Sequence record: PV037056.1
Reading direction: 5' to 3' (one strand)
Length of the DNA: 64,000 nt
Source: Staphylococcus phage Fi4S2
This document shows, one piece after another, positions 1,244-28,677 of this stretch. Below the pieces are notes generated by a model, which saw only the letters and a list, made by a program, of their open reading frames with translations, searched no databases and had not been told where the DNA came from. Both the position numbers and the translations under genes were made by a program. Within the stretch, counting starts at the first letter, position 1; every line of letters starts with the position of its first letter.

Positions 1244-4200
1244 TAAGAAGACAATCAGGACTTGGAACTACCTTTTCAGAAACAACTTCTGAAGACAATA
1301 AAATGAAGAGCTTGATTTTAGCTAGAATCATAAAAGTATACTATAAGTATCAAACTGTTGAATTAGAGGCATTATCAGGTAAGTTGTCACTAGGTAAAGG
1401 TAACAACACAGAAGGTAGATTTTCAGCTCCATATCCTAAGTCTTTCACAGGATTAACTCCTGAGAATGAAGTATATGGCTCTATACCTGTAATGTCTCCA
1501 GGCATGATAGTGCTTGTTGGTTTTATTAATGATAGCCCTAGTAATCCTATAATCATTAATAGTTATGGGCTAAATGAGCATAATAAGCAACTAGTTAGAA
1601 CACCATTATTAAGTGGTGACATGAGAGATGATAAGAACTATAAACTCAACTCAGCATCTTTTACGCTATCACCTAGTTTAACTTATCAGTTTAAAGATGG
1701 TGAAGGCAATGAAGTTAATACGTGGAATGGTTATACATTTCAATCTATAACTTCTGATGCTAATAACTTACCTGTAGCTACTGACTACATGGATGGTAGT
1801 TATTACATGGATTTATATACTAGTAAGTATGGTGACGATTCTTTAATTGAACCTAGAATTAAGCAAGCTCCTGCGATGTTCTTTAAACACCAAGGAGAAT
1901 ATACATCAGATGGTGAGTTAGATAATCATATATACATGGACTATATAGAACCTGATGGTACACATAGAACTACTTCTATGAATAGAGAAGAGCAATGGAG
2001 AACATCTGTTGAGCAAGGACATAAAGGTGACTGGAGAGTAAGATACCAAGCAGATAGTATCATATTAGATGATGCATTAGACTATATAGAATTTGGCTTA
2101 GATAGTGATAATCAACGGTTTTACATAGAAAACCCAAATCATTCTTTTGAAGTCACAGATGAGGGCATCATTGTCGATGGAAAGCCTCTATTAGCTAACA
2201 TAGATGACAGTATTGAAGAAGCCTTTAAACACCTAGATGAGATAGAAAGTCAAATGGAAGAAGTTCAGAACATACTTGAAGGCCTAGGTGAGAGAAGTTT
2301 AAGAGAACTTATAAATTCTACTAATGAAGCTATAGCTAAAACTGAACAAAATGAAACTAAGATAAGTGCGCTTAACAAGGCTATAAATGAGAACACTAAT
2401 AACATTACAGGTATGATAGAGAAGTATGATAACTTTATGGATACTGTAAGAACCTACATTCAAGATAATGATACTAATATTAACAGTATTAGAGACCGAT
2501 TGAGAGAGGTTGAAAACTCATCTGATTTAGAACCACTCAAAAAAGATTTAGAAAAATATAAATATAAAACATACAGAGACATTAGAGTGGAAGCTGATTT
2601 ACCTAGATACTTTGCTGGTTATGATGCTATACTATCGGGCTCCCAAAATACAAAGTATAACTTGCAAGCATTTGCTATGGATAGTAAATACTACTTCTTA
2701 TTGTTTAAACCTGAAGGTACAGGAGACAAAAGAAATATCTTAGTAGTTTATGATAAGTTTTTAAAAGAAATTAATAAGTATTTCTTTGGTCAAGGAGTAA
2801 TCCAAACGATAGCTATTGATGTTCCTGCAAACACTACTAATCGTTACCTCTATACTAAGCTCGATGACCAAACAATAGTTTCTTATGACTTAACAGCAAT
2901 AGATAGTAAGGATGTCTTGACATTTAATGACATTACTAGTAAAGAGCCTAGAGCATCTTATTCAGTACCTGTTCAGGATACTATACTAAAGGTTAGAGAT
3001 AACTGGATAGTTAAGACAGTAATTGACAGCTTTGGTTATGCTACTTACACGCTTTATGATAAGGATTTCTCTAACCCATCTAAGTTATACAGATTACGTA
3101 ATAATAGTAATGTTGTAGGCTCTATGATGGATGGTGGAAACTTAGCCCAAGTAATTCAAACCCAAAATACAGCAGGAGTACAGATAGTTAATTCTGACAA
3201 TAGTATTCAGGATTACACGTACAGTAACACAGAGTTAAACTCCTTTATTCAAAGTAAGATAGGAGTTTCTACTCCAACAGCTAAACAGGTAGGTGCTTTT
3301 AGTAGTTCTGATGTTTACTTATCTACTATAGTTTACAATGAGGATACAAGCTATGGAAAGACTAAGGGCATTGCGATTATAGAACATAAATCATCTAATA
3401 GGGATTACAAGTTTAGAGAGTTCTCTTTACCTGTAGACCAAAGACTTACAGTAGCCTGTATAGGTACAAAGCTATTTAACACAAATACAAACTCTGAGAT
3501 TAATAGTATAGAGGATTTACTCACTACTATGACAGACTTGAAGATGAGTTCATTTTCACTATATACAAATAATACTAATATAATTGATTTTAATTCATCT
3601 ACAAAAGTACCTACAGATGTTATTGTAACTATATCCATGTTAACGGATAAAACATTCTATGTTACCTATACATTTACTAAAAATAACCAAGAGAACAATT
3701 ACATCATAAAGAATACAAGTTCAGGTTACTCTTACGTAAGTATTGATAATGAACCTGTACTTAATAGCATAGATGTATATGCAATTAAAAATGTAGGTAA
3801 ATCATACGTAATAAATGGTACTAACCTACCTGAAGGAAGTACAGAAGGATTTGTAGAGCTAAGACAAACACCTAATGCAAGTTTGTTACTATTTATTGAT
3901 GCTACATCATTAAACCAATATGGTGCTATAAAAAAAGACACACAATGGGGAGAATGGAAACTATTATCAAAGGAGATTTTTAAACCAAAAGGAGGCGGGT
4001 CGGATAAGTATAAATCAATGACAGAGTTAATGAGTATTGTCCCTGCTGGTACACAATGGGAGATAGTAACTAAAAACCTATACTCTGATACACTAGTAAC
4101 AGCTATACATGGTGGAGGTATAGAGATAGGTACGTCAGAACTAGCAGAAGAAGTAGCAACGGAATCTAACAAGGATTACTTCTCCTTCTTAGGTAAGAAA

Positions 4201-4626
4201 TCATCAAATAACTCTGAATTACATGTTACCTCTACTAATTATGATGAGCCTACATTGTTTACTATGCTTAGACGTTCTTTATATTCCGTAGCAATACATG
4301 GAGCTAGTGGAGATGACAAAGTTATCTATATAGGAGGAGCAGACGCTACAAACAAGGCTATCATGAAATCAGAACTGATTAATGCTGGCTTTGATGCTCA
4401 AGATGCTCCTGATAACCTAGCGGGTCTAGAACCAAATAATATATCTAATCAGACCAAAAGAAAAGGGTGTGTTCAGTTAGAGTTGACTACAGCACTTAGA
4501 AAATCATTCTTTTTAAATGATGACTGGTCTAAAGCTAACAGAAGTAATAGAGATAATTGGACATCTACCTTATTTAACTTAACAACAGCTATAACAACTG
4601 CAATGAGTAAATTTGAAAATGACTAA
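1228..4626 (+). CDS. large tail/baseplate structural protein (1132 aa) with a central coiled-coil segment
   Basis: Long uninterrupted ORF. It sits between the tail lysin and the baseplate genes, as the large tail proteins do in phage K-like genomes. No catalytic motif could be confirmed by eye. Confidence 0.4.
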   Translation: MGANVVRRQSGLGTTFSETTSEDNKMKSLILARIIKVYYKYQTVELEALSGKLSLGKGNNTEGRFSAPYPKSFTGLTPENEVYGSIPVMSPGMIVLVGFINDSPSNPIIINSYGLNEHNKQLVRTPLLSGDMRDDKNYKLNSASFTLSPSLTYQFKDGEGNEVNTWNGYTFQSITSDANNLPVATDYMDGSYYMDLYTSKYGDDSLIEPRIKQAPAMFFKHQGEYTSDGELDNHIYMDYIEPDGTHRTTSMNREEQWRTSVEQGHKGDWRVRYQADSIILDDALDYIEFGLDSDNQRFYIENPNHSFEVTDEGIIVDGKPLLANIDDSIEEAFKHLDEIESQMEEVQNILEGLGERSLRELINSTNEAIAKTEQNETKISALNKAINENTNNITGMIEKYDNFMDTVRTYIQDNDTNINSIRDRLREVENSSDLEPLKKDLEKYKYKTYRDIRVEADLPRYFAGYDAILSGSQNTKYNLQAFAMDSKYYFLLFKPEGTGDKRNILVVYDKFLKEINKYFFGQGVIQTIAIDVPANTTNRYLYTKLDDQTIVSYDLTAIDSKDVLTFNDITSKEPRASYSVPVQDTILKVRDNWIVKTVIDSFGYATYTLYDKDFSNPSKLYRLRNNSNVVGSMMDGGNLAQVIQTQNTAGVQIVNSDNSIQDYTYSNTELNSFIQSKIGVSTPTAKQVGAFSSSDVYLSTIVYNEDTSYGKTKGIAIIEHKSSNRDYKFREFSLPVDQRLTVACIGTKLFNTNTNSEINSIEDLLTTMTDLKMSSFSLYTNNTNIIDFNSSTKVPTDVIVTISMLTDKTFYVTYTFTKNNQENNYIIKNTSSGYSYVSIDNEPVLNSIDVYAIKNVGKSYVINGTNLPEGSTEGFVELRQTPNASLLLFIDATSLNQYGAIKKDTQWGEWKLLSKEIFKPKGGGSDKYKSMTELMSIVPAGTQWEIVTKNLYSDTLVTAIHGGGIEIGTSELAEEVATESNKDYFSFLGKKSSNNSELHVTSTNYDEPTLFTMLRRSLYSVAIHGASGDDKVIYIGGADATNKAIMKSELINAGFDAQDAPDNLAGLEPNNISNQTKRKGCVQLELTTALRKSFFLNDDWSKANRSNRDNWTSTLFNLTTAITTAMSKFEND

Positions 4627-4628
4627 GT

Positions 4629-4657
4629 AGAAGAGGCTAACACCTCTTCTTTTTTGT
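4629..4657 (+). terminator. rho-independent terminator after the 1132-aa tail gene
   Basis: GC-containing hairpin gaagagg/cctcttc followed by a T-run. Confidence 0.5.
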
Positions 4658-4700
4658 TGTATGTTATATTAATTTTGAAGAAGACCACAAGATAAAATAC

Positions 4701-4728
4701 TTGCAATACCTTATAAGTATGGTATAAT
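4701..4728 (+). promoter_or_regulatory. sigma-A-like promoter (TTGCAA-16 bp-TATAAT)
   Basis: Near-consensus -35 and -10 hexamers with correct spacing, upstream of the 4760 ORF. Confidence 0.45.
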
Positions 4729-4759
4729 AAGTGCATAGACTATAGAAAGGAGTTATATT

Positions 4760-5554
4760 ATGCCTCAATCAGACGGTACAAATACACTAAAAAGAATTGC
4801 ATTACACTTTTCTGATGACAATGGTAGTTTTACTAACTCTACTGAAGACATTTATAGATTTGCTGTAAACCCTGAAAATTATAGACATACAATGCCACAA
4901 CGTTCTAATGTTTTAAAAACTAAGTCAAGTATAATAGTAGAAGACTATGGCAAAGACATTGAAACGATTACCTTTTCAGGTACAACAGGCTTTAGAAAGA
5001 TAAAACAAAATGGTAAGGTAATGAATGGTAAACAAAGAATGGATGAGTTAATATCTCTAGTAGACTACTACGCTCAGTCAAGTGGAGGCAGTGGTAATAG
5101 ACCTTCACATTTAAGATTTTATAATCGTACAGACGATGTTAACAAACTAGTGACATTAGCACCTGAAGGATTAACAGTTACGAGAGATAAAGAAAACCCA
5201 TTGATGTATCAGTACGAGATAACATTAGTAGTTTTAGGTTTTGCCTGGGAAGATGGGGACAATGCAAAAACAGACCCTGAGTTTGGTAACGTACAACCTA
5301 GCCCCAGCCAAGATGCTACCAATAAGTTTTTAGACCAAAATGACTATGACTATGGGTATAGAGACCAAAATAATACTGCTATGAATAATGGTGACAATAG
5401 ATTCACTGACCATATCAAAGATACTGATAACAACATACAATCTAATAATACTAGTGGTACAGTAGCTAATCCAAGAGTTAACCTTAGAGGTATGTCGAGT
5501 TCTGTATCAAATATGGCTCAAATTGTAGGCTATGGGAATGGTGGTGTAGGTTAA
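4760..5554 (+). CDS. hypothetical baseplate-region protein (264 aa)
   Basis: ORF with an RBS (aaaggag). Assigned by position in the baseplate module. Confidence 0.4.
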   Translation: MPQSDGTNTLKRIALHFSDDNGSFTNSTEDIYRFAVNPENYRHTMPQRSNVLKTKSSIIVEDYGKDIETITFSGTTGFRKIKQNGKVMNGKQRMDELISLVDYYAQSSGGSGNRPSHLRFYNRTDDVNKLVTLAPEGLTVTRDKENPLMYQYEITLVVLGFAWEDGDNAKTDPEFGNVQPSPSQDATNKFLDQNDYDYGYRDQNNTAMNNGDNRFTDHIKDTDNNIQSNNTSGTVANPRVNLRGMSSSVSNMAQIVGYGNGGVG

Positions 5555-20057: not shown

Positions 20058-22622
20058 GTGAAGATTATTGTAGACATTATAGACAGCAAGATAGAGTTTG
20101 AACCTGAAGATGAGCATTTAAAACCCGCTATTATCAACAGAGCACATACAGATTTAGGTGCTAGAGACCCAAACTTTTTGCATGATAGAAGGTATAAGTT
20201 AGGTATATGGGATGGGATGATAGACTTTTACGATGCAAAAAACCACTCATTCCCTACAGGACTTCTAGAAAAAGTTATGATTATGCTAGGGGACATGCAG
20301 TCACAGTATGGGTTTACATACTCTGTAGAGGACTTCAGACCTGACACATTTTTAGATGTTGATGAGATGGATGAGGAGATAGTTTTAAAGGATGAAGAGT
20401 TAGGCTCCATAACGCTCAGAGACTATCAACACGATGCAGTAAAAGGTATCATAGAACATATGAATGGTATTGTTAACCTAAGCACTAATGCAGGTAAATG
20501 TATCAATAAGAATACAAGAATACTTACAGCTCAAGGTTATAAAACACTGGAGGACATCTTTACAGAACAAGGTATAAGTTTAGATGGTGATGAAGAAGTT
20601 ATACCATTAAAGTATACGCTTATTAATCGTTATGGAAAGAGAGAGCAAACAAGTCATTTTACAAAGAATGGTATTAAGCCTACTAAAGTAATAACTACAC
20701 ACAGAGGAACAACATTGAATACAACCTATAATCATCCATTGTTAGTAGATAGAGAGGGCATACCTGAGTGGGTTAAAGCAGAGGACTTAAAAGCAGGAGA
20801 CAAACTATATGCTAGAGCTGGAGATAATGTATTTGGTACAGATAAAACAGTTAGGTCTGAGAGTGAAGCTTATAGAAGAGGTGCTTTACAAACTGCAACA
20901 ACACCTCTACCAAAGTATATTCATCAAGCCCCAAGAAAAATACAATTAGCATTTCTTACTGGGTTTTTAAATCTAAGAGAAGGTATTGATTTACTAAAAA
21001 CATTACATACTTATAATGAACGTATTGTAATAGAAAGTCCATGTAAAGAGCTTTTAGAGGACTTACAGCTAGTTCTATCTAACCTAGGTATCCTATCTTC
21101 CCTGAAAGATACAGAAAAATCATCTTTTACATATTACGGTTTATTGAACGTGTATGAAGGACAAGAAGAGCTTAACATAGAAACTCAAACCTATTTACAA
21201 GAAGTTGTATCTATAGAAGAAGGGGAAGAGATTCCTACATTTGATGTTAGTATGCCTGAGACAAACTCATTCATAGGACAAGGAATTATAAATCATAATA
21301 CGGAAGTAGCTAGTGGAATCATTCAGCAGTTACTCCCTCAGTTAGAAAGAGGAGAACGTATTGCTTTCTTCACTAATAACTCATCTATCTTTTACCAGTC
21401 AGCTAAACGTATAGGAGATAGATTAGGTATTAAAGTAGGGTTATATGGTGGAGGTAAAAAAGACATCCAACAAGTTACATGTGTAATGTTACCTACGATA
21501 CATGCTGGGTTGACAGACCCTGAAAAAAATGTTAAACTAACTGAGAAAGAAAGACTATTTAAACGTATAGCCAAGGAAGTACTACCTCAGTTTGAATCAG
21601 GGGTAAACCAACGTTATCTACTGAAGCTATTTATTGACCGTTTTGAGCCTAAGACTAAAGTTGACTTAAAGTTTAAGCATGAACTTGAAGAGGTCTTACA
21701 TAGAAGTGGTTCTGATAGTGAAGTATTGATGAACTTAACAAAGTATGCTAAGCTATATAGAGAAACAATACAGAAGAAAAATAATAAAGTATATAAGAAA
21801 AATAAAGAAGTGGTAGACTTCTTAGAGAGTGTTTCTGTTATGATTTGTGATGAAGCACATCATACGTCAGCAGATACTTGGTACTACTCACTCAGACGAT
21901 GCATCAATGCTCAATACAGAGTAGCCCTTACAGGTTCAATAGAAGAGAGCAATGAACTACTTGTAATGAGGATGAAATCGGTATTTGGAGAGATAGTAGC
22001 TAAAGTAAGAAATAAACAAATGATTGAAAGAGGTTTTTCTGCTAAACCTATTATAAAAGTTTTTCCTGTAACTCAACCTAAAGACATATCGGGACTAAAA
22101 GAGTTCCAAGAAATATACAGGAAAGGTATAGTTGAGAATGAGTATAGAAACCTGTTGATGGCTAAACTAACTAAAACATTAAACACACAAGGTAAAACAA
22201 CATTGTTAATAGTAAACCATACAAAACATGGAGAGGCGTTAGTAGAGTTATTAGAGCAACTAGAAATAGACCATAGATTCATTCACGGTCAATTGTCTAC
22301 AGAGTATAGAGAAGAGTCATTACAATTAGTGAGAGACGGGAAACTAAGTGTCCTTATAGCCACATCTATTGTAGATGAGGGTGTAGACATCTCAGCTATT
22401 GACGCTTTAATACTTTGTGCAGGAGGTAAATCTCTACGACAAACCCTTCAGCGTATAGGTAGAACATTAAGAAAGAAAAAAGGTGACAATACCTGCCAAG
22501 TATTTGATTTCACTGATTACACACATGACATTTTACTTTCACACTCTAAGAAGAGAAGAAAAATATATGTAGAAGAAGAGTTTGAGATAGTTGACATACA
22601 GCCAAAAGCAAAACAAGGGTAA
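20058..22622 (+). CDS. SF2 DNA helicase (DEAH) precursor containing an intein; the mature helicase is ~587 aa
   Basis: Walker A is split: STNAGK | C...HN | TEVASG. A DEAH box (CDEAHH) and a helicase C-terminal domain follow. GTG start with an RBS (ataggagga). Confidence 0.7.
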   Translation: MKIIVDIIDSKIEFEPEDEHLKPAIINRAHTDLGARDPNFLHDRRYKLGIWDGMIDFYDAKNHSFPTGLLEKVMIMLGDMQSQYGFTYSVEDFRPDTFLDVDEMDEEIVLKDEELGSITLRDYQHDAVKGIIEHMNGIVNLSTNAGKCINKNTRILTAQGYKTLEDIFTEQGISLDGDEEVIPLKYTLINRYGKREQTSHFTKNGIKPTKVITTHRGTTLNTTYNHPLLVDREGIPEWVKAEDLKAGDKLYARAGDNVFGTDKTVRSESEAYRRGALQTATTPLPKYIHQAPRKIQLAFLTGFLNLREGIDLLKTLHTYNERIVIESPCKELLEDLQLVLSNLGILSSLKDTEKSSFTYYGLLNVYEGQEELNIETQTYLQEVVSIEEGEEIPTFDVSMPETNSFIGQGIINHNTEVASGIIQQLLPQLERGERIAFFTNNSSIFYQSAKRIGDRLGIKVGLYGGGKKDIQQVTCVMLPTIHAGLTDPEKNVKLTEKERLFKRIAKEVLPQFESGVNQRYLLKLFIDRFEPKTKVDLKFKHELEEVLHRSGSDSEVLMNLTKYAKLYRETIQKKNNKVYKKNKEVVDFLESVSVMICDEAHHTSADTWYYSLRRCINAQYRVALTGSIEESNELLVMRMKSVFGEIVAKVRNKQMIERGFSAKPIIKVFPVTQPKDISGLKEFQEIYRKGIVENEYRNLLMAKLTKTLNTQGKTTLLIVNHTKHGEALVELLEQLEIDHRFIHGQLSTEYREESLQLVRDGKLSVLIATSIVDEGVDISAIDALILCAGGKSLRQTLQRIGRTLRKKKGDNTCQVFDFTDYTHDILLSHSKKRRKIYVEEEFEIVDIQPKAKQG
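20499..21299 (+). mobile_element. intein (267 aa) with a LAGLIDADG-type homing endonuclease domain, inserted in the helicase P-loop
   Basis: N-terminal Cys (CINKNTRILTAQG). A block-B TxxH motif (KVITTHRG). LAGLIDADG-like motifs (LAFLTGFLNLREG; LLEDLQLVLSNLGI). C-terminal HN followed by a +1 Thr that restores GK-T of Walker A. Confidence 0.75.
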
Positions 22623-25768: not shown

Positions 25769-26350
25769 ATGAAATTTATATTTTTCACAGACAGTCATTT
25801 TCACTTATTCACAGACTTTAGTAAACCTGATGAGTTTTATCGTAATGACAGATTTAGAGAACAGATAGAAACTTTAAATCATGTTTTTACTCTTGCTAGA
25901 GAAAAGGAAGCTACAATTATTTTTGGTGGTGATTTATTTCATAAACGTAATGCTGTAGATACAGTAGTATATAATGAGGTATTTAAGGTATTTGCTAGAA
26001 ATAAAGATGTAGCTGTCTTATTACTCAGAGGCAACCATGATGCTACAACCAATTCAGTGTATACTGACTCAAGTATAGACACGTTTGAATACTTACCTAA
26101 TGTAAGTGTATTTCAATCTTTTGGAACTATAGAGGTAGGTAATGCAAACTTAGTATTTACAGCTTATGGTGATGAGACTGAAGAGATAAAGGACTACATT
26201 GAAGATAACTACAATACAGATAAGGTTAACATCCTTGTAGGACACTTAGGTGTAGAAGGGTCTTTAACAGGTAAAGGTTCACACAGATTAGAAGGAGCTT
26301 TTGGGTACCAAGACCTTTTACCTGATAAGTATGATTTTATTCTTTTAGGG
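25769..26350 (+). CDS. sbcD: Mre11/SbcD-like nuclease, exon 1 (194 aa)
   Basis: Calcineurin-like phosphoesterase motifs DSHFH, GGDLFH, GNHD. The exon ends ...DKYDFILLG immediately before the expected GHxH motif. Confidence 0.75.
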
Positions 26351-26750
26351 TAGATGCCCTGCTTATTCGTAAAGAGTAAGTACCGAGTGTTAAATGCTAT
26401 GAATCCGTAAAGCTAACTAAACTGAAACAGAAGAGGAAACTCTAGATGGAAAAGTTGTGAAAACAGAAAAAATTAGTTAGATGTACTAAGGTTAAATCCT
26501 AAGGTATACACAATCGGTCTATAGCAGGGAAAGACCTAAGTTCAAATGAATAAGGGAGACCCTCAACGACTATTCCGTATAGGTGACGGAAGTAAAACCC
26601 TAAACGACTGAGGGAAGAAAAATACTCCTACCTTAACTAAGGTAGAACAAATAGTCTCCACCCGTACCGAAAGGTAGGGCTATAGATGAACTATAGGATT
26701 ACAAAGTGGTGTTTGTAATCAAAGAATGTTAAATAAATTATAACTTCCTA

Positions 26751-26779
26751 TTGACATTACTTCCCTAACATGTTATAGT
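26751..26779 (+). promoter_or_regulatory. internal sigma-A-like promoter (TTGACA-17 bp-TATAGT) driving tnpB within the intron
   Basis: Perfect -35, 17-bp spacer, near-consensus -10, 22 nt upstream of the tnpB RBS (aaggaggtg). Confidence 0.5.
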
Positions 26780-26801
26780 ACATGTATAAGGAGGTGTAAT
26801 A

Positions 26802-28076
26802 ATGTCAGAAAGTACAACGTACAGAAAAATTAAAATAAGGTTAGTACCAACAAAAGAACAGGAAGAGTTAATGTGGAAGCATGTTCATGCTAGTAGATTT
26901 ATTTACAATTGGGGTCTTGAAAGGTGGTATAGTAATTTAGATAATGGAATAAAGAATACTACAAGTAATAAGTTATCTAAAGAACTAAAAACAGTGAAAG
27001 AAGAAAACCCATGGTTAAAAGAGGTATCTAATAAAACTTTAGTAAAATCATTACAAGTTCTAGAGTTTAATATGAAGAGGTTTTTTAAAAAACAAACTAA
27101 AAGACCTAAATTTAAGAGCTCTAAAAGCAGTATACCTTCTTTTAAAACACGAACAGAAACTAAGTGGGGTAATAAACATTTACCTAACATTGAAGGAGAT
27201 AGGATACGGTTAGAAAAACTAAAATTAGTTAAATTATCTTCTAAGATAACTAAATCTATGAAAGAAAAGAACATAAACCCTGTATTTTATTCTAGTACAA
27301 TCTATTATGATGGTAAATATTGGTATATTTCATTAGCATATAAAGTCGAGAACCAAGACAAAAAAGAACTCACCAATGAAACCATAGGTATAGACTTAGG
27401 AATAAAATCATTAGCTACTTGTTCAAATGGTAAATCTTATAAAAATATTAATAAAAGTTCTAAAGTTAAAAAACTAGAGAAAAGACTAACTAGATTACAA
27501 AGACAACTATCACGTAAGTATGAAATGAATAAAGATAAAATACGAGTAGGACTACTTAATACAGATGGAACACCTAAGATAGATAAGCAAGGTAGACACA
27601 TGTATAAGTATTCTAAAACTAAGAACATTATTAAGTTAGAAAAAGAGATAAAACTCTTACACAGAAAACTTAAAAATATTAGAAATAATCATGTTCATAC
27701 TATGACTAAAGAAATAGTAGAATTATTACCACAAGAAATAGTAATAGAAGATTTAAAAGTAAGTAATATGTTAAAGAATAAACATTTATCTAAACATATA
27801 AGTAAAGCTAATTGGTATGAAATACGTAGACAATTAACTTATAAATGTGAGGATAGAGGAATTCTTCTTACAATAGCAAATACTTATTACCCTTCAAGTC
27901 AAACCTGTAGTCATTGTGGTAATCGTTTAACCAAACAAGACAAACTTAGTCTTAAAGAGAGAACTTACAAATGTAAGAAATGTAATTCTAGTTTAGATAG
28001 GGACTTAAATGCTAGTATTAACTTAATGAACTATAGATACTCCAAATGGTGTCAAAATAATATAATTTCACAATAA
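26802..28076 (+). CDS. tnpB: TnpB (IS200/IS605-family OrfB) RNA-guided nuclease homolog, apparently intact (424 aa)
   Basis: Typical OrfB N-terminus (YRKIKIRLVPTKEQEELMWKHVHASRFIYNWG). RuvC-I GIDLGIKS, RuvC-II VIEDLKVSN. Zn finger CSHCGN...CKKCNSS. RuvC-III DRDLNASINL. Confidence 0.85.
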   Translation: MSESTTYRKIKIRLVPTKEQEELMWKHVHASRFIYNWGLERWYSNLDNGIKNTTSNKLSKELKTVKEENPWLKEVSNKTLVKSLQVLEFNMKRFFKKQTKRPKFKSSKSSIPSFKTRTETKWGNKHLPNIEGDRIRLEKLKLVKLSSKITKSMKEKNINPVFYSSTIYYDGKYWYISLAYKVENQDKKELTNETIGIDLGIKSLATCSNGKSYKNINKSSKVKKLEKRLTRLQRQLSRKYEMNKDKIRVGLLNTDGTPKIDKQGRHMYKYSKTKNIIKLEKEIKLLHRKLKNIRNNHVHTMTKEIVELLPQEIVIEDLKVSNMLKNKHLSKHISKANWYEIRRQLTYKCEDRGILLTIANTYYPSSQTCSHCGNRLTKQDKLSLKERTYKCKKCNSSLDRDLNASINLMNYRYSKWCQNNIISQ

Positions 28077-28233
28077 AAGAAATATATTATATGTAGGATT
28101 CCGTAAATCCGAATTTACGCCTTTGGAGTATCATACAAACCTTAGTAGAGTAATAAGAAGTAATTCTTTACAGAATGAAATACTCAAAAAGGGATACGTT
28201 GAAGAAGGAAGTTATAAATTAATTAACATACGG

Positions 28234-28677
28234 CATTATCATAGAAGACAGTATTTCCAAAACCCAAATCACTTTTATGGTGGTTCTTTAATGCAACAAT
28301 CGTTCTCAGATGAGCAAGAAGCTAATGGTGTTCACTTAATAGATACTGATACTATTACAACGGAATTTATACCTCTAGATACACGTAGGTTTATTACAGT
28401 AAGAGGAGATGATGTTCCTGAAGACCTAGACCAACTTATAGAGTATGGTCACTTCATTAGATTTGTAGGTAGTACTAACCAAGCTAAAGCGATAGAGTTA
28501 GCATCTACAGATGAGACTAATAACATACGAGTAGAGTTACAAAAAGATTATACGGTAGAAAAACGTATAGATAGTGAAGTCACTGACTCACCATTATCTA
28601 TAGCATCAAGCTATTCAGATAAGTACTATCCTGAAGCTAAAAAAGAAATACTAGAATGTCTACAGGAGGTGTTATAG
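28234..28677 (+). CDS. sbcD: Mre11/SbcD-like nuclease, exon 2 (147 aa)
   Basis: Begins HYHRRQYF... and completes the GHxH motif when joined to exon 1. The track ORF start at 28123 (MEYHTNL...) is probably intron 3' tail read-through, not coding. Confidence 0.7.
   Translation, partial: HYHRRQYFQNPNHFYGGSLMQQSFSDEQEANGVHLIDTDTITTEFIPLDTRRFITVRGDDVPEDLDQLIEYGHFIRFVGSTNQAKAIELASTDETNNIRVELQKDYTVEKRIDSEVTDSPLSIASSYSDKYYPEAKKEILECLQEVL

What the first reader, a model, noticed from the sequence alone, without database searches (positions are those of the whole stretch)
26351..28233. IStron-like element (group I intron + intact TnpB RNA-guided nuclease) splitting the phage mre11/sbcD gene at the GHxH motif
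Exon 1 ends ...DFILLG and exon 2 begins HYHRRQ. Joined, they give the universally conserved Mre11/SbcD motif IV (LGHxHRxQ) and a ~341-aa protein of normal size. The 1.88-kb insert starts with ~450 nt of non-coding RNA carrying group I R/S-like elements (caacgactatt / aaatagtctcc, P7 gacta:tagtc). It then encodes a TnpB with all RuvC-I/II/III and zinc-finger residues, driven by its own consensus promoter, and ends in G just before the exon. A group I ribozyme at the 5' end, an IS200/605-type tnpB at the 3' end, and no tnpA is the IStron architecture known from Clostridia and Bacillus. Finding it inside an essential recombination nuclease gene of a lytic myophage is unusual. Every other intron in this window carries a classical protein-only homing endonuclease (GIY-YIG, HNH, PD-(D/E)xK). 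Here TnpB plus its guide RNA may play the homing-endonuclease role, i.e. RNA-guided intron homing between co-infecting phages.
Basis: partly seen in the sequence, partly recalled or inferred. Interest (0 to 1): 0.9.

Follow-up and report, generated by a model that had tools for sequence, protein, structure and literature searches.

The report
IStron splitting a phage nuclease gene
[quoted passage not shown] This kind of element is already known, but I found no description of it in such phages, and here it offers a natural test of RNA-guided intron homing.

Summary
A 1,883-bp insert (26351-28233) splits the phage sbcD/mre11 gene. A near-identical phage (Golestan-100) carries the uninterrupted gene, reading ...TTAGGG|CATTATCAT... 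(LLG|HYHRRQ).

The insert is a TnpB-only group B (IS607-type) IStron, and it meets every sequence feature of that class:
- It is inserted after AGGG and ends in ACGG.
- Its first base is a U whose U·G pair lies one base pair beyond the splice site.
- It has an IA2 ribozyme: 97% of cells paired and 57 of 95 pairs compensatory across 11 Staphylococcus phage copies.
- A 24-bp AU-rich inverted-repeat stem encloses the ORF.
- The tnpB is intact (D198/E316/D401, two CxxC motifs).
- A RAGATH-18 guide-RNA scaffold follows, and its last five bases form a covarying pseudoknot.

No tnpA is present in the window.

Two corrections: the element is IS607-type, not IS200/605-type, and such elements are common, though undescribed in the papers searched, in Staphylococcus Twortvirinae.

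New evidence for mobility: the IStron is 92-94% identical to the copy at the same site in phage PSU6 (tnpB dS 0.16), while the flanking genes are only 65-74% identical (sbcD dS 1.9).

Splicing and TnpB-guided homing are inferred, not shown. Verdict: new member of a known kind, moderate interest.

The parts
25769..26350 (+). sbcD/mre11 exon 1 (194 codons, ends ...DFILLG)
   Evidence: ORF list and Pfam Metallophos match. It is collinear with the uninterrupted Golestan-100 gene.
26347..26350 (+). AGGG: the last four exon bases. They act as the GG-ending target site, the inferred TAM, and the 5' strand of P1.
   Evidence: Pairs with CCCU 26357-26360, read directly from the sequence. Group B IStrons insert after AGGG, TGGG or GAGG (PMC4227781), and the CboTnpB TAM is TGGG (10.1101/2023.11.20.567912). 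All related Staphylococcus phage copies whose 5' junction could be read (all but DELF3) have GG|U at this junction, with a matching guide sequence in the intron.
26351..28233 (+). Complete IStron (1,883 bp)
   Evidence: Absent from the otherwise near-identical Golestan-100 allele. Present at the same site in phage PSU6.
26351..26725 (+). Group I (IA2-like) ribozyme: P1-P2-P3-P4-P5(extended)-P6-P7-P7.1-P7.2-P8-P9-P9.1-P9.2. U26351·G26356 is the wobble pair, shifted one base pair beyond the splice site. The internal guide sequence is 26356-26360. 26353-26356 can pair with CAUU of exon 2 (P10).
   Evidence: Rfam Intron_gpI over the full model, 31.7 bits, E = 2e-6 in the local search. RNAalifold and pair counts on 11 copies: 97.1% of cells paired and 57 of 95 pairs with compensatory changes, against 7-16 in the shifted controls.
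26568..26572 (+). P7 5' strand (GACUA), within the R-like block
   Evidence: Invariant in all 11 copies and complementary to 26652-26656 (helix 15).
26652..26656 (+). P7 3' strand (UAGUC), within the S-like block
   Evidence: helix 15.
26726..26749 (+). 5' arm of the AU-rich inverted-repeat stem that encloses the ORF
   Evidence: 24 nt, 92% complementary to 28206-28229. The two arms change together between element subfamilies.
26751..26779 (+). Promoter-like site TTGACA-17-TATAGT with an upstream TG; RBS AAGGAGGTG at 26788-26796
   Evidence: Best consensus match in the region, 11 of 12. The Romulus record annotates a promoter at the equivalent place. Function was not tested.
26802..28076 (+). 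tnpB (424 aa), an RNA-guided nuclease with RuvC D198/E316/D401 and CxxC motifs at 369 and 391
   Evidence: Pfam and NCBIfam matches. The best solved relative is the IS607 ISFba1 TnpB, 8iaz, E = 4e-51. dN/dS is 0.29 against the PSU6 copy.
28077..28233 (+). Guide-RNA (omega/reRNA) scaffold: 5' flanking hairpin 28096-28110, RAGATH-18 core 28120-28210, 3' tail 28211-28233
   Evidence: Rfam RAGATH-18 at 65.8 bits, gathering score 44.9. RAGATH-18 is the reRNA of IS607 TnpBs (PMC11061315). The same family is found in four related copies and in Clostridium phage D-1873.
28101..28105 (+). Pseudoknot strand 1 (CCGUA), the loop of the 5' flanking hairpin
   Evidence: Complementary to the last 5 nt of the element. 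The pairing covaries across copies: CCGUA/UACGG, CCGUAA/UUACGG, CCAUGA/UCAUGG, CCAUA/UAUGG.
28206..28229 (+). 3' arm of the inverted-repeat stem
28229..28233 (+). UACGG: pseudoknot strand 2, the element's right end, the terminal G and the 3' splice site
   Evidence: Group B IStrons end in CGG (PMC4227781) and the Cbo omega-RNA scaffold ends UCGG (10.1101/2023.11.20.567912).
28234..28253 (+). First 20 nt of exon 2 (CATTATCATAGAAGACAGTA), the inferred guide segment and target
   Evidence: Inferred from the IS607 TnpB architecture, in which the guide starts right after the right end (PMC11061315; 10.1101/2023.11.20.567912). AGGG plus this sequence is intact in the empty Golestan-100 allele.
28234..28677 (+). 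sbcD/mre11 exon 2 (147 codons, begins HYHRRQ)
   Evidence: The exons are under purifying selection, dN/dS 0.07-0.11.

Best explanation
The insert is a non-autonomous, TnpB-only group B (IS607-family) IStron living in the sbcD/mre11 gene of a virulent Staphylococcus Twortvirinae phage.

Inferred from sequence and comparison:
- The 5' 375 nt fold into an IA2 group I ribozyme.
- The ribozyme recognises exon 1 by pairing AGGG with its internal guide CCCU. It cuts after G26350, with the usual U·G pair shifted one position into the intron.
- A 24-bp AU-rich stem brings the distant 3' end (...ACGG, G28233) next to the core, and exon 1 is ligated to exon 2. This restores LLG|HYHRRQ and a working nuclease.

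Inferred by homology to the CboIStron and ISFba1 systems:
- From its own promoter inside the stem-loop, the element makes TnpB.
- Unspliced transcripts supply a guide RNA. Its scaffold is 28077-28233 (RAGATH-18 core plus a pseudoknot that uses the last five bases) and its guide is the first ~16-20 nt of exon 2.
- TnpB with this RNA should cut any sbcD allele that reads AGGG + CATTATCAT..., i.e. an empty site. It should spare the occupied site, where ACGG replaces the TAM.
- During co-infection, repair of that break from the IStron-bearing genome copies the element in (homing). After any excision, the same cut would restore the element.
- Because the pseudoknot and the 3' splice site use the same bases, guide-RNA formation and splicing compete.
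For: - **Empty site and exact junction:**
- **Group B hallmarks, all present:** AGGG target, first base U with a shifted U·G pair followed by a loop, ACGG terminus (defined in PMC4227781 and PMC13565253); a 24-bp AU-rich inverted-repeat stem, 83% A+T.
- **Ribozyme:** Intron_gpI full-length match; 57 of 95 pairs compensatory and 97% of cells paired, against 35-46% in shifted controls. The internal guide sequence changes with the exon end at other insertion sites: GCCCU with AGGG or GGGG, GCCGU with GCGG, GCCUUG with CAAGG.
- **TnpB:** intact and under purifying selection.
- **Guide RNA:** RAGATH-18 hit and a covarying pseudoknot reaching the last base of the element.
- **Self/non-self logic:** ACGG versus AGGG mirrors UCGG versus TGGG in CboIStron.
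- **Mobility:** the IStron is 92-94.5% identical to the PSU6 copy at the same site (tnpB dS 0.16). The sbcD exons are 73-74% identical (dS 1.93) and neighbouring genes 65-70%.
- **A near-isogenic empty allele exists:** flanks are mostly 94-100% identical outside a divergent patch in exon 1, and the TAM plus 41 nt downstream are identical.
Against: - No RNA or biochemical data exist. Splicing, TnpB activity, the TAM and the guide length are all inferred.
- Rfam Intron_gpI is below its gathering score (31.7 against 50).
- NCBIfam's specific IS607_TnpB model scores below its cut-off (164 against 350), and lower than the IS200_TnpB model (264 against 425). The IS607 assignment therefore rests on the termini, the RAGATH-18 hit and the best solved relative.
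- The scaffold tail after RAGATH-18 is only 23 nt, against 64 nt in the structurally solved ISFba1 reRNA.
- The 3' region alone folds no better than shuffled sequence, z = 0.01.
- PSU6's exon 2 differs from the window's at 5 of the first 16 guide positions. The two copies cannot have exchanged the element directly with their present guides.
- Related elements sit at several different gene sites, which needs transposition, not homing.
Confidence: 0.85

Rival explanations
1. The element is a passenger IS607-type transposon that moves only when a serine-recombinase TnpA is supplied in trans by a co-infecting phage or the host. In this reading, TnpB serves only to restore the element after excision. 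It does not drive spread between phages.
For: - Related IStrons sit at many different GG-ending sites: a second sbcD site, sbcC, the portal gene, the tail lysin gene.
- IS607 TnpA homologues (56% identical to ISCbt4 TnpA) occur in 28 Staphylococcus phage records, for example KSAP7.
- That KSAP7 element also ends in ACGG.
Against: - IS607 TnpA needs only a GG core. It would not be expected to hit the same codon of sbcD twice in phages whose flanks are saturated at synonymous sites.
- The window itself has no tnpA.
- The KSAP7 TnpB is only 28% identical to the window's.
Confidence: 0.3
2. TnpB is no longer a nuclease here. It has been kept as a splicing regulator or RNA chaperone, or is simply decaying, and the intron spreads only by ordinary recombination between phages.
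For: - dN/dS of 0.29 is higher than for the flanking phage genes.
- The guide-RNA 3' tail is short compared with ISFba1.
- TnpB is known to repress splicing in CboIStron.
Against: - The full RuvC triad and both CxxC motifs are retained.
- The RAGATH-18 core and the terminal pseudoknot are conserved, with compensatory changes.
- The ORF is intact in both the window and PSU6.
Confidence: 0.1
3. It is a plain insertion sequence that has inactivated sbcD, with no splicing. The phage would manage without SbcD or use two separate polypeptides.
For: Rfam's group I model does not reach its gathering score, and was missed altogether in the larger scans.
Against: - The ribozyme is supported by strong covariation.
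- Both exons keep their frames and are under strong purifying selection in two diverged IStron-bearing phages, dN/dS 0.07-0.11.
- Exon 2 has no start codon or ribosome-binding site of its own at the junction.
- The active-site GHxH motif would be split between the two pieces.
Confidence: 0.03

Closest known systems
CboIStron (IS607-family IStron of Clostridium botulinum; Zedaveinyte et al., bioRxiv 10.1101/2023.11.20.567912)
   Same: - IA2 ribozyme at the left end, with tnpB and its guide RNA at the right end.
- G-rich TAM/target (TGGG there, AGGG here).
- Scaffold ending NCGG.
- A pseudoknot that overlaps the 3' splice site, so splicing and guide-RNA formation compete.
   Different: - CboIStron encodes its own serine-recombinase TnpA and lives in a bacterial genome. 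This element has no tnpA and sits in an essential gene of a virulent phage.
- Protein identity to clostridial phage relatives is only about 35%.
BcISt1 and other group B IStrons, including CbISt3/CbISt4 of C. botulinum phages c-st and D-1873 and the ORF-B-only CsISt1 (Tourasse et al. 2014, PMC4227781)
   Same: - Insertion after AGGG, TGGG or GAGG and a CGG terminus.
- The 5' exon ends in G, with the U·G pair shifted by one and followed by a loop.
- A long AU-rich inverted-repeat stem around the ORF.
- ORF A is often missing while ORF B stays intact.
   Different: - New host range: Staphylococcus Twortvirinae, not listed in the 2014 survey.
- The ribozyme belongs to the resident Twort-like intron family of these phages (72-82% identical to other Staphylococcus phage introns).
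ISFba1 TnpB with its RAGATH-18-derived reRNA (Ren et al. 2024, PMC11061315; PDB 8iaz)
   Same: - Best solved relative of the protein (E = 4e-51).
- Same RuvC triad positions.
- Same RAGATH-18 RNA core directly downstream of tnpB.
   Different: - ISFba1 is an intron-less IS607 with TAM AGGAG and a 64-nt 3' flanking motif. Here the tail is 23 nt and doubles as an intron stem arm.
- The window's TnpB has an insertion of about 20 aa (residues ~253-272).
Classical phage group I introns carrying protein homing endonucleases (T4 td/I-TevI; the Twort and phage K introns)
   Same: - The same ribozyme class, in essential DNA-metabolism genes of virulent phages.
- Expected spread by double-strand-break repair during co-infection.
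   Different: - The endonuclease here is RNA-guided, and its target specificity comes from the flanking exon rather than from protein-DNA contacts.
- The 5' splice site follows G, not U.

Membership tests
Group B (IS607-type) IStron | A group I (IA2) ribozyme at the 5' end of the element | tested here: met
   Full-length Intron_gpI alignment at 31.7 bits, below the gathering score. P7.1 and P7.2 are present. 57 of 95 pairs show compensatory changes and 97% of cells are paired.
Group B (IS607-type) IStron | Inserted after a GG-ending site (AGGG/TGGG/GAGG), with no target duplication | tested here: met
   The empty site reads TTAGGG|CATTAT and the occupied site reads TTAGGG|TAGATG...ACGG|CATTAT.
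Group B (IS607-type) IStron | The 3' terminus is CGG | tested here: met
   ...AACATACGG|. Related copies end in ACGG or ATGG.
Group B (IS607-type) IStron | The 5' exon ends in G. The first intron base is a U that forms a U·G pair one position beyond the splice site, next to a loop. | tested here: met
   G26350-C26357, U26351·G26356, then the loop AGAU. The U is absent from the empty allele.
Group B (IS607-type) IStron | A long (15-34 bp), >80% AU inverted-repeat stem enclosing the ORF region | tested here: met
   26726-26749 with 28206-28229: 24 nt, 92% complementary, 20 of 24 positions A/T. The arms covary between subfamilies.
Group B (IS607-type) IStron | ORF B (TnpB) present; ORF A, when present, is an IS607-type serine recombinase | tested here: inconclusive
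   TnpB is present and intact. ORF A is absent, so the IS607 assignment rests on the termini, RAGATH-18 and the best solved relative. NCBIfam IS607_TnpB is below its cut-off. Loss of ORF A is common in this group (PMC4227781).
Group B (IS607-type) IStron | Self-splicing that ligates the exons exactly | not testable with these tools
   Needs RT-PCR, RNA-seq or in vitro splicing. It is supported only indirectly, by intact and selected exons.
IS607 TnpB / RAGATH-18 reRNA RNA-guided nuclease | A RAGATH-18 RNA immediately downstream of tnpB | tested here: met
   28120-28210, 65.8 bits against a gathering score of 44.9, starting 43 nt after the stop codon.
IS607 TnpB / RAGATH-18 reRNA RNA-guided nuclease | RuvC D-E-D triad and a zinc-finger/TNB domain | tested here: met
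   D198, E316 and D401 align with ISFba1 D194, E290 and D371. CxxC motifs at 369 and 391.
IS607 TnpB / RAGATH-18 reRNA RNA-guided nuclease | Full reRNA scaffold (5' flank + RAGATH-18 + ~64-nt 3' flank) with pseudoknots | tested here: inconclusive
   The 5' flanking hairpin and a covarying terminal pseudoknot are present. The 3' flank is only 23 nt, against 64 nt in ISFba1.
IS607 TnpB / RAGATH-18 reRNA RNA-guided nuclease | TAM-dependent, guide-dependent cleavage of double-stranded DNA | not testable with these tools
   Needs a biochemical or plasmid-interference assay.
Group A (IS200/IS605-type) IStron (CdISt1-like) | Inserted after TTGAT/ATTAT/TTTAT, ends in TCAG, 5' exon ends in U, short balanced inverted-repeat stem | tested here: not met
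   The target is AGGG, the end is ACGG, the exon ends in G, and the stem is 24 bp and AU-rich.

The most novel reading that the evidence does not exclude
In virulent Staphylococcus Twortvirinae phages, TnpB-only IStrons act as RNA-guided homing introns. TnpB, programmed by the exon that follows its own intron, cuts intron-less alleles of co-infecting phages and so drives the element into the same site across phage lineages. This would be the first natural case in which an RNA-guided nuclease plays the role of an intron homing endonuclease. The same-site copy in PSU6 (tnpB dS 0.16 against 1.9 for the host gene) would be its footprint.
Probability: 0.45. Interest if true: 0.75.

Novelty: new member of a known kind. 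Interest (0 to 1): 0.5.

Why it matters
IStrons and the trade-off between TnpB guide RNA and splicing are established in Clostridia and Bacillus. Whether TnpA-less IStrons spread by TnpB-driven intron homing is still an explicit open question; a 2026 review (PMC13565253) calls it 'awaiting experimental validation'.

Virulent phages are the classic system for measuring intron homing, because it can be done by mixed infection. This window, together with Golestan-100, provides a natural near-isogenic occupied/empty pair with an intact TAM and target. That makes the question directly testable.

It also shows that many 'transposase' genes annotated inside split genes of therapeutic Staphylococcus phages (Silviavirus and relatives) are parts of IStrons that encode programmable nucleases. 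This is relevant to phage-therapy genome annotation and to phage-phage competition.

Tried and rejected
- **Standard splice site after U26351.** This is what the Rfam alignment implies. I rejected it because the empty allele has no T between GGG and CAT and the frame would break. The shifted U·G pair is the documented group B pattern.
- **Rfam scans of the 64-kb window and of 2.2 kb.** Neither found Intron_gpI. Only the ~400-nt search did, so the absence of Rfam hits elsewhere in the window says little.
- **Thermodynamic folding of the 3' region.** z-score 0.01, no signal. Support comes from the covariance-model match and covariation instead.
- **Junction pattern AACATACGGCAYTAYCAY in IMG/VR.** The five hits are all chance, with no similarity to the element.
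- **TnpB relatives in representative bacterial genomes.** None were confirmed. In IMG/VR only 31-43% identical relatives were found. No bacterial source was identified.
- **Co-conversion tract.** Exon 1 has a patch (-550 to -51 from the junction) that is only 79-94% identical to Golestan-100, against mostly 94-100% elsewhere. The patch is no closer to PSU6 and no donor is in the database, so this stays only suggestive.
- **Clostridium phage D-1873 element as a reference for the 3' end.** Its right end could not be placed with confidence.
- **DELF3 sbcC copy.** Its 5' junction does not show the expected GG|U pairing. Left unresolved.
- **Literature searches.** Searches for IStron or TnpB with Staphylococcus phage, Herelleviridae or Twortvirinae found no description of these elements as IStrons. 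Subscription-only papers, such as Lavigne & Vandersteegen 2013, could not be searched.
Full report
**1. What is in the sequence**

The window comes from a Staphylococcus phage of the Twortvirinae (Herelleviridae); all close database matches are such phages.

An ORF of 194 codons (25769-26350, Pfam Metallophos) ends ...DFILLG. A reading frame starting at 28234 continues HYHRRQ... to 28677. Joined, they give a 341-aa SbcD/Mre11-type nuclease.

Phage Golestan-100 carries the same gene uninterrupted (341 aa). Its DNA reads ...TTTATTCTTTTAGGGCATTATCATAGAAGAC... across the point. The insert is therefore real, 1,883 bp long, and placed to within a 0-2 nt ambiguity, because exon 1 ends GGG and the insert ends CGG. 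Phage PSU6 has the same insert at the same codon.

**2. The 5' part is a group I ribozyme**

- Rfam's Intron_gpI model aligns over its whole length to 26342-26679. It scores only 31.7 bits (gathering score 50; E = 2e-6 in a 401-nt search). It was missed when 2.2 kb or 64 kb were scanned.
- The ribozyme block is 72-82% identical to group I introns at other sites in many Staphylococcus phages.
- I aligned 11 copies from different genes and phages. RNAalifold predicted P2, P3, P4, an extended P5, P6, P7.1, P7.2, P8, P9 and P9.2.
- On that structure plus P7, 97.1% of cells pair, against 35-46% when partners are shifted. 57 of 95 pairs have changes on both sides, against 7-16 in the shifted controls. 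No shuffle out of 500 reached the observed values.
- P7 (GACUA/UAGUC) is invariant.

**3. It is the IS607-type 'group B' IStron, which explains the odd splice site**

The Rfam alignment puts the usual U·G pair at U26351·G26356. That would make U26351 the last exon base, but the empty allele has no T there. This is exactly what Tourasse et al. described and verified experimentally for BcISt1, and it is summarised in a 2026 review. Group B IStrons have these features:
- They insert after AGGG, TGGG or GAGG.
- They end in CGG.
- They splice after a G that pairs with a C.
- They carry the U·G pair one step further in, next to a loop.
- They have a long AU-rich inverted-repeat stem around the ORF.

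All of these are present here: AGGG|U, G26350-C26357, the loop AGAU...ACGG|, and a 24-nt, 92% complementary, 83% A+T stem (26726-26749 with 28206-28229).

For the C. botulinum IStron, the TAM is TGGG and the guide-RNA scaffold ends UCGG. The AGGG/ACGG pair here is directly analogous.

Across the other Staphylococcus phage copies whose 5' junction could be read (all but DELF3), the exon always ends GG followed by intron U. The internal guide changes to match the exon: GCCCU with AGGG or GGGG, GCCGU with GCGG, GCCUUG with CAAGG. All right ends finish in GG, and the two stem arms change together between subfamilies.

**4. The 3' part is a TnpB with its guide RNA**

- The 424-aa ORF matches Pfam HTH_OrfB_IS605, OrfB_IS605 and Cas12f1-like_TNB, and NCBIfam guided_TnpB at 287 bits (cut-off 100). 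The narrower IS607_TnpB and IS200_TnpB models stay below their cut-offs.
- Its best solved relative is 8iaz (E = 4e-51), the IS607 ISFba1 TnpB. That protein's catalytic D194, E290 and D371 align with D198, E316 and D401 here. Two CxxC motifs are present.
- Forty-three nucleotides after the stop codon, Rfam finds RAGATH-18 (28120-28210, 65.8 bits). Ren et al. showed this RNA to be the guide-RNA core of IS607 TnpBs. The same family is found in four related phage copies and in Clostridium phage D-1873.
- The loop of a small hairpin upstream of RAGATH-18 (CCGUA, 28101-28105) is complementary to the last five bases of the element (UACGG). This pairing covaries across copies: CCGUAA/UUACGG, CCAUGA/UCAUGG, CCAUA/UAUGG. 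The guide-RNA scaffold therefore runs to the very last base, and the guide must be the start of exon 2.
- The same bases include the terminal G and the 3' splice site. This reproduces the splicing-versus-guide-RNA conflict shown for CboIStron.
- A strong promoter-like site and a ribosome-binding site precede tnpB, inside the stem-loop.
- No tnpA and no second tnpB are in the window.

**5. Evidence that the element moves**

| Comparison, window vs PSU6 | Nucleotide identity |
|---|---|
| Ribozyme | 92.2% |
| tnpB | 94.5% |
| 3' RNA region | 88.5% |
| sbcD exons | 73-74% |
| Neighbouring genes | 65-70% |

- Synonymous divergence is 0.16 for tnpB and 1.93 for sbcD. The tnpB dN/dS is 0.29. The element therefore entered the same codon of sbcD in two long-separated phage lineages, much more recently than those lineages split.
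- Golestan-100 is mostly 94-100% identical to the window in the ±2 kb flanks, apart from the exon 1 patch noted below, but lacks the element. It keeps AGGG plus 41 identical downstream bases, so it is a ready target.
- A patch of lower identity in exon 1 (79-94%) could be a co-conversion tract. No donor could be identified.
- Related elements also occupy other sites: a second sbcD site inside the GDLFH motif, sbcC, the portal gene and the tail lysin gene.
- IS607-type TnpA genes exist in 28 Staphylococcus phage records, for example in an intron-less IS607 of KSAP7. Transposition in trans has therefore also played a part in the family's history.

**6. Mechanism and what remains inferred**

- Read from the sequence and comparisons: the anatomy, the junction, the RNA structures, the intact nuclease and recent horizontal transfer to the same site.
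- Inferred by homology to BcISt1, CboIStron and ISFba1: exact self-splicing after G26350, TnpB cleavage of AGGG + exon 2 targets about 16-22 bp into exon 2, sparing of the occupied site, and homing by break repair.
- Uncertainties: the sub-threshold Rfam score; the short 23-nt scaffold tail compared with 64 nt in ISFba1; no thermodynamic signal in the 3' region; and 5 mismatches in 16 nt between the window and PSU6 guides, so they did not exchange the element directly.

**7. Comparison with what is known, and novelty**

This is a member of a described class, group B IStrons. The 2014 survey already lists two in C. botulinum phages. The idea that TnpB-only IStrons home like introns has been stated as an untested hypothesis.

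I found no paper describing IStrons in Staphylococcus phages or in Herelleviridae. One Silviavirus paper lists group I introns, RAGATH-18 and an 'ISBth15 transposase' as separate features without connecting them. Yet TnpB homologues occur in 96 Staphylococcus phage records and the ribozyme family in 98.

So this is a new member of a known kind. It is not rare, but it is useful: it is a natural system for testing RNA-guided intron homing by mixed infection. Interest is moderate (0.5).

Noticed in passing
window ~36360-36760: The gene order breaks here. A truncated nrdE (34496-35662, barrel domain cut at 213 of 523 profile positions) and a GIY-YIG homing endonuclease (35774-36355) on the + strand are followed directly by structural genes on the - strand: tail sheath/tube, major capsid, portal. 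Window 36757-38000 matches Golestan-100 at 22.4-23.9 kb in reverse, while sbcD matches at 59 kb forward. This suggests an inversion or an assembly misjoin inside the nrdE intron region.
   Followed up: partly
window 20058-22622: The helicase ORF (854 aa) contains an intein: Intein_splicing, PT-HINT and LAGLIDADG_3 domains at roughly residues 155-414.
   Followed up: no
window 34496-36355: nrdE exon 1 is followed by an I-TevI-like GIY-YIG endonuclease ORF, a classical intron/HEG arrangement. Related phages annotate the same. Rfam found no Intron_gpI here at gathering threshold, but the same scan also missed the sbcD ribozyme.
   Followed up: partly
window 33455-34075: A free-standing or intron-borne PD-(D/E)xK endonuclease ORF (Pfam PDDEXK_15, E = 1e-62).
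   Followed up: no
window 61680-61818: Rfam DUF3800-I RNA match just above its gathering score (45.5 against 44.2 bits), ending in a terminator-like hairpin and a run of U.
   Followed up: no
window 25800-26300 (sbcD exon 1): A patch only 79-94% identical to Golestan-100, where surrounding DNA is mostly 94-100% identical. sbcD dS is 0.38 against 0.14 for the neighbouring helicase. It may be a co-conversion or recombination tract next to the IStron. The donor is unknown.
   Followed up: partly
L004 (phage SPJ2) 1497-3425: A related IStron (about 80% identical in the 3' half) sits at a different site of the same gene, splitting the GG|DLFH metal-binding motif after TTTGGGGG. It has a ~25-nt longer P1 loop.
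   Followed up: partly
L003 (phage DELF3) ~3263-5181: An IStron in the sbcC/rad50-like gene. Its right end is a normal ...TTACGG|CAGGGA, but its 5' junction (ATGTATG|AATGATTGCCCC) lacks the expected GG|U and does not pair with the internal guide. It may be a degenerate copy or a sequencing error.
   Followed up: no
L013 (phage KSAP7) 2995-4760: An intron-less IS607 element with a serine-recombinase TnpA plus a TnpB only 28% identical to the window's, lying downstream of DNA polymerase I. It ends ...AAATACGG. IS607 TnpA homologues are present in 28 Staphylococcus phage records.
   Followed up: partly
L010 and L011 (phages PG-2021_27, BE06): Introns of the same ribozyme family for which no tnpB was seen here also have a GG followed by U at the 5' junction, with a matching internal guide. 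Without empty alleles, it cannot be told whether they splice after the G or after the U.
   Followed up: no
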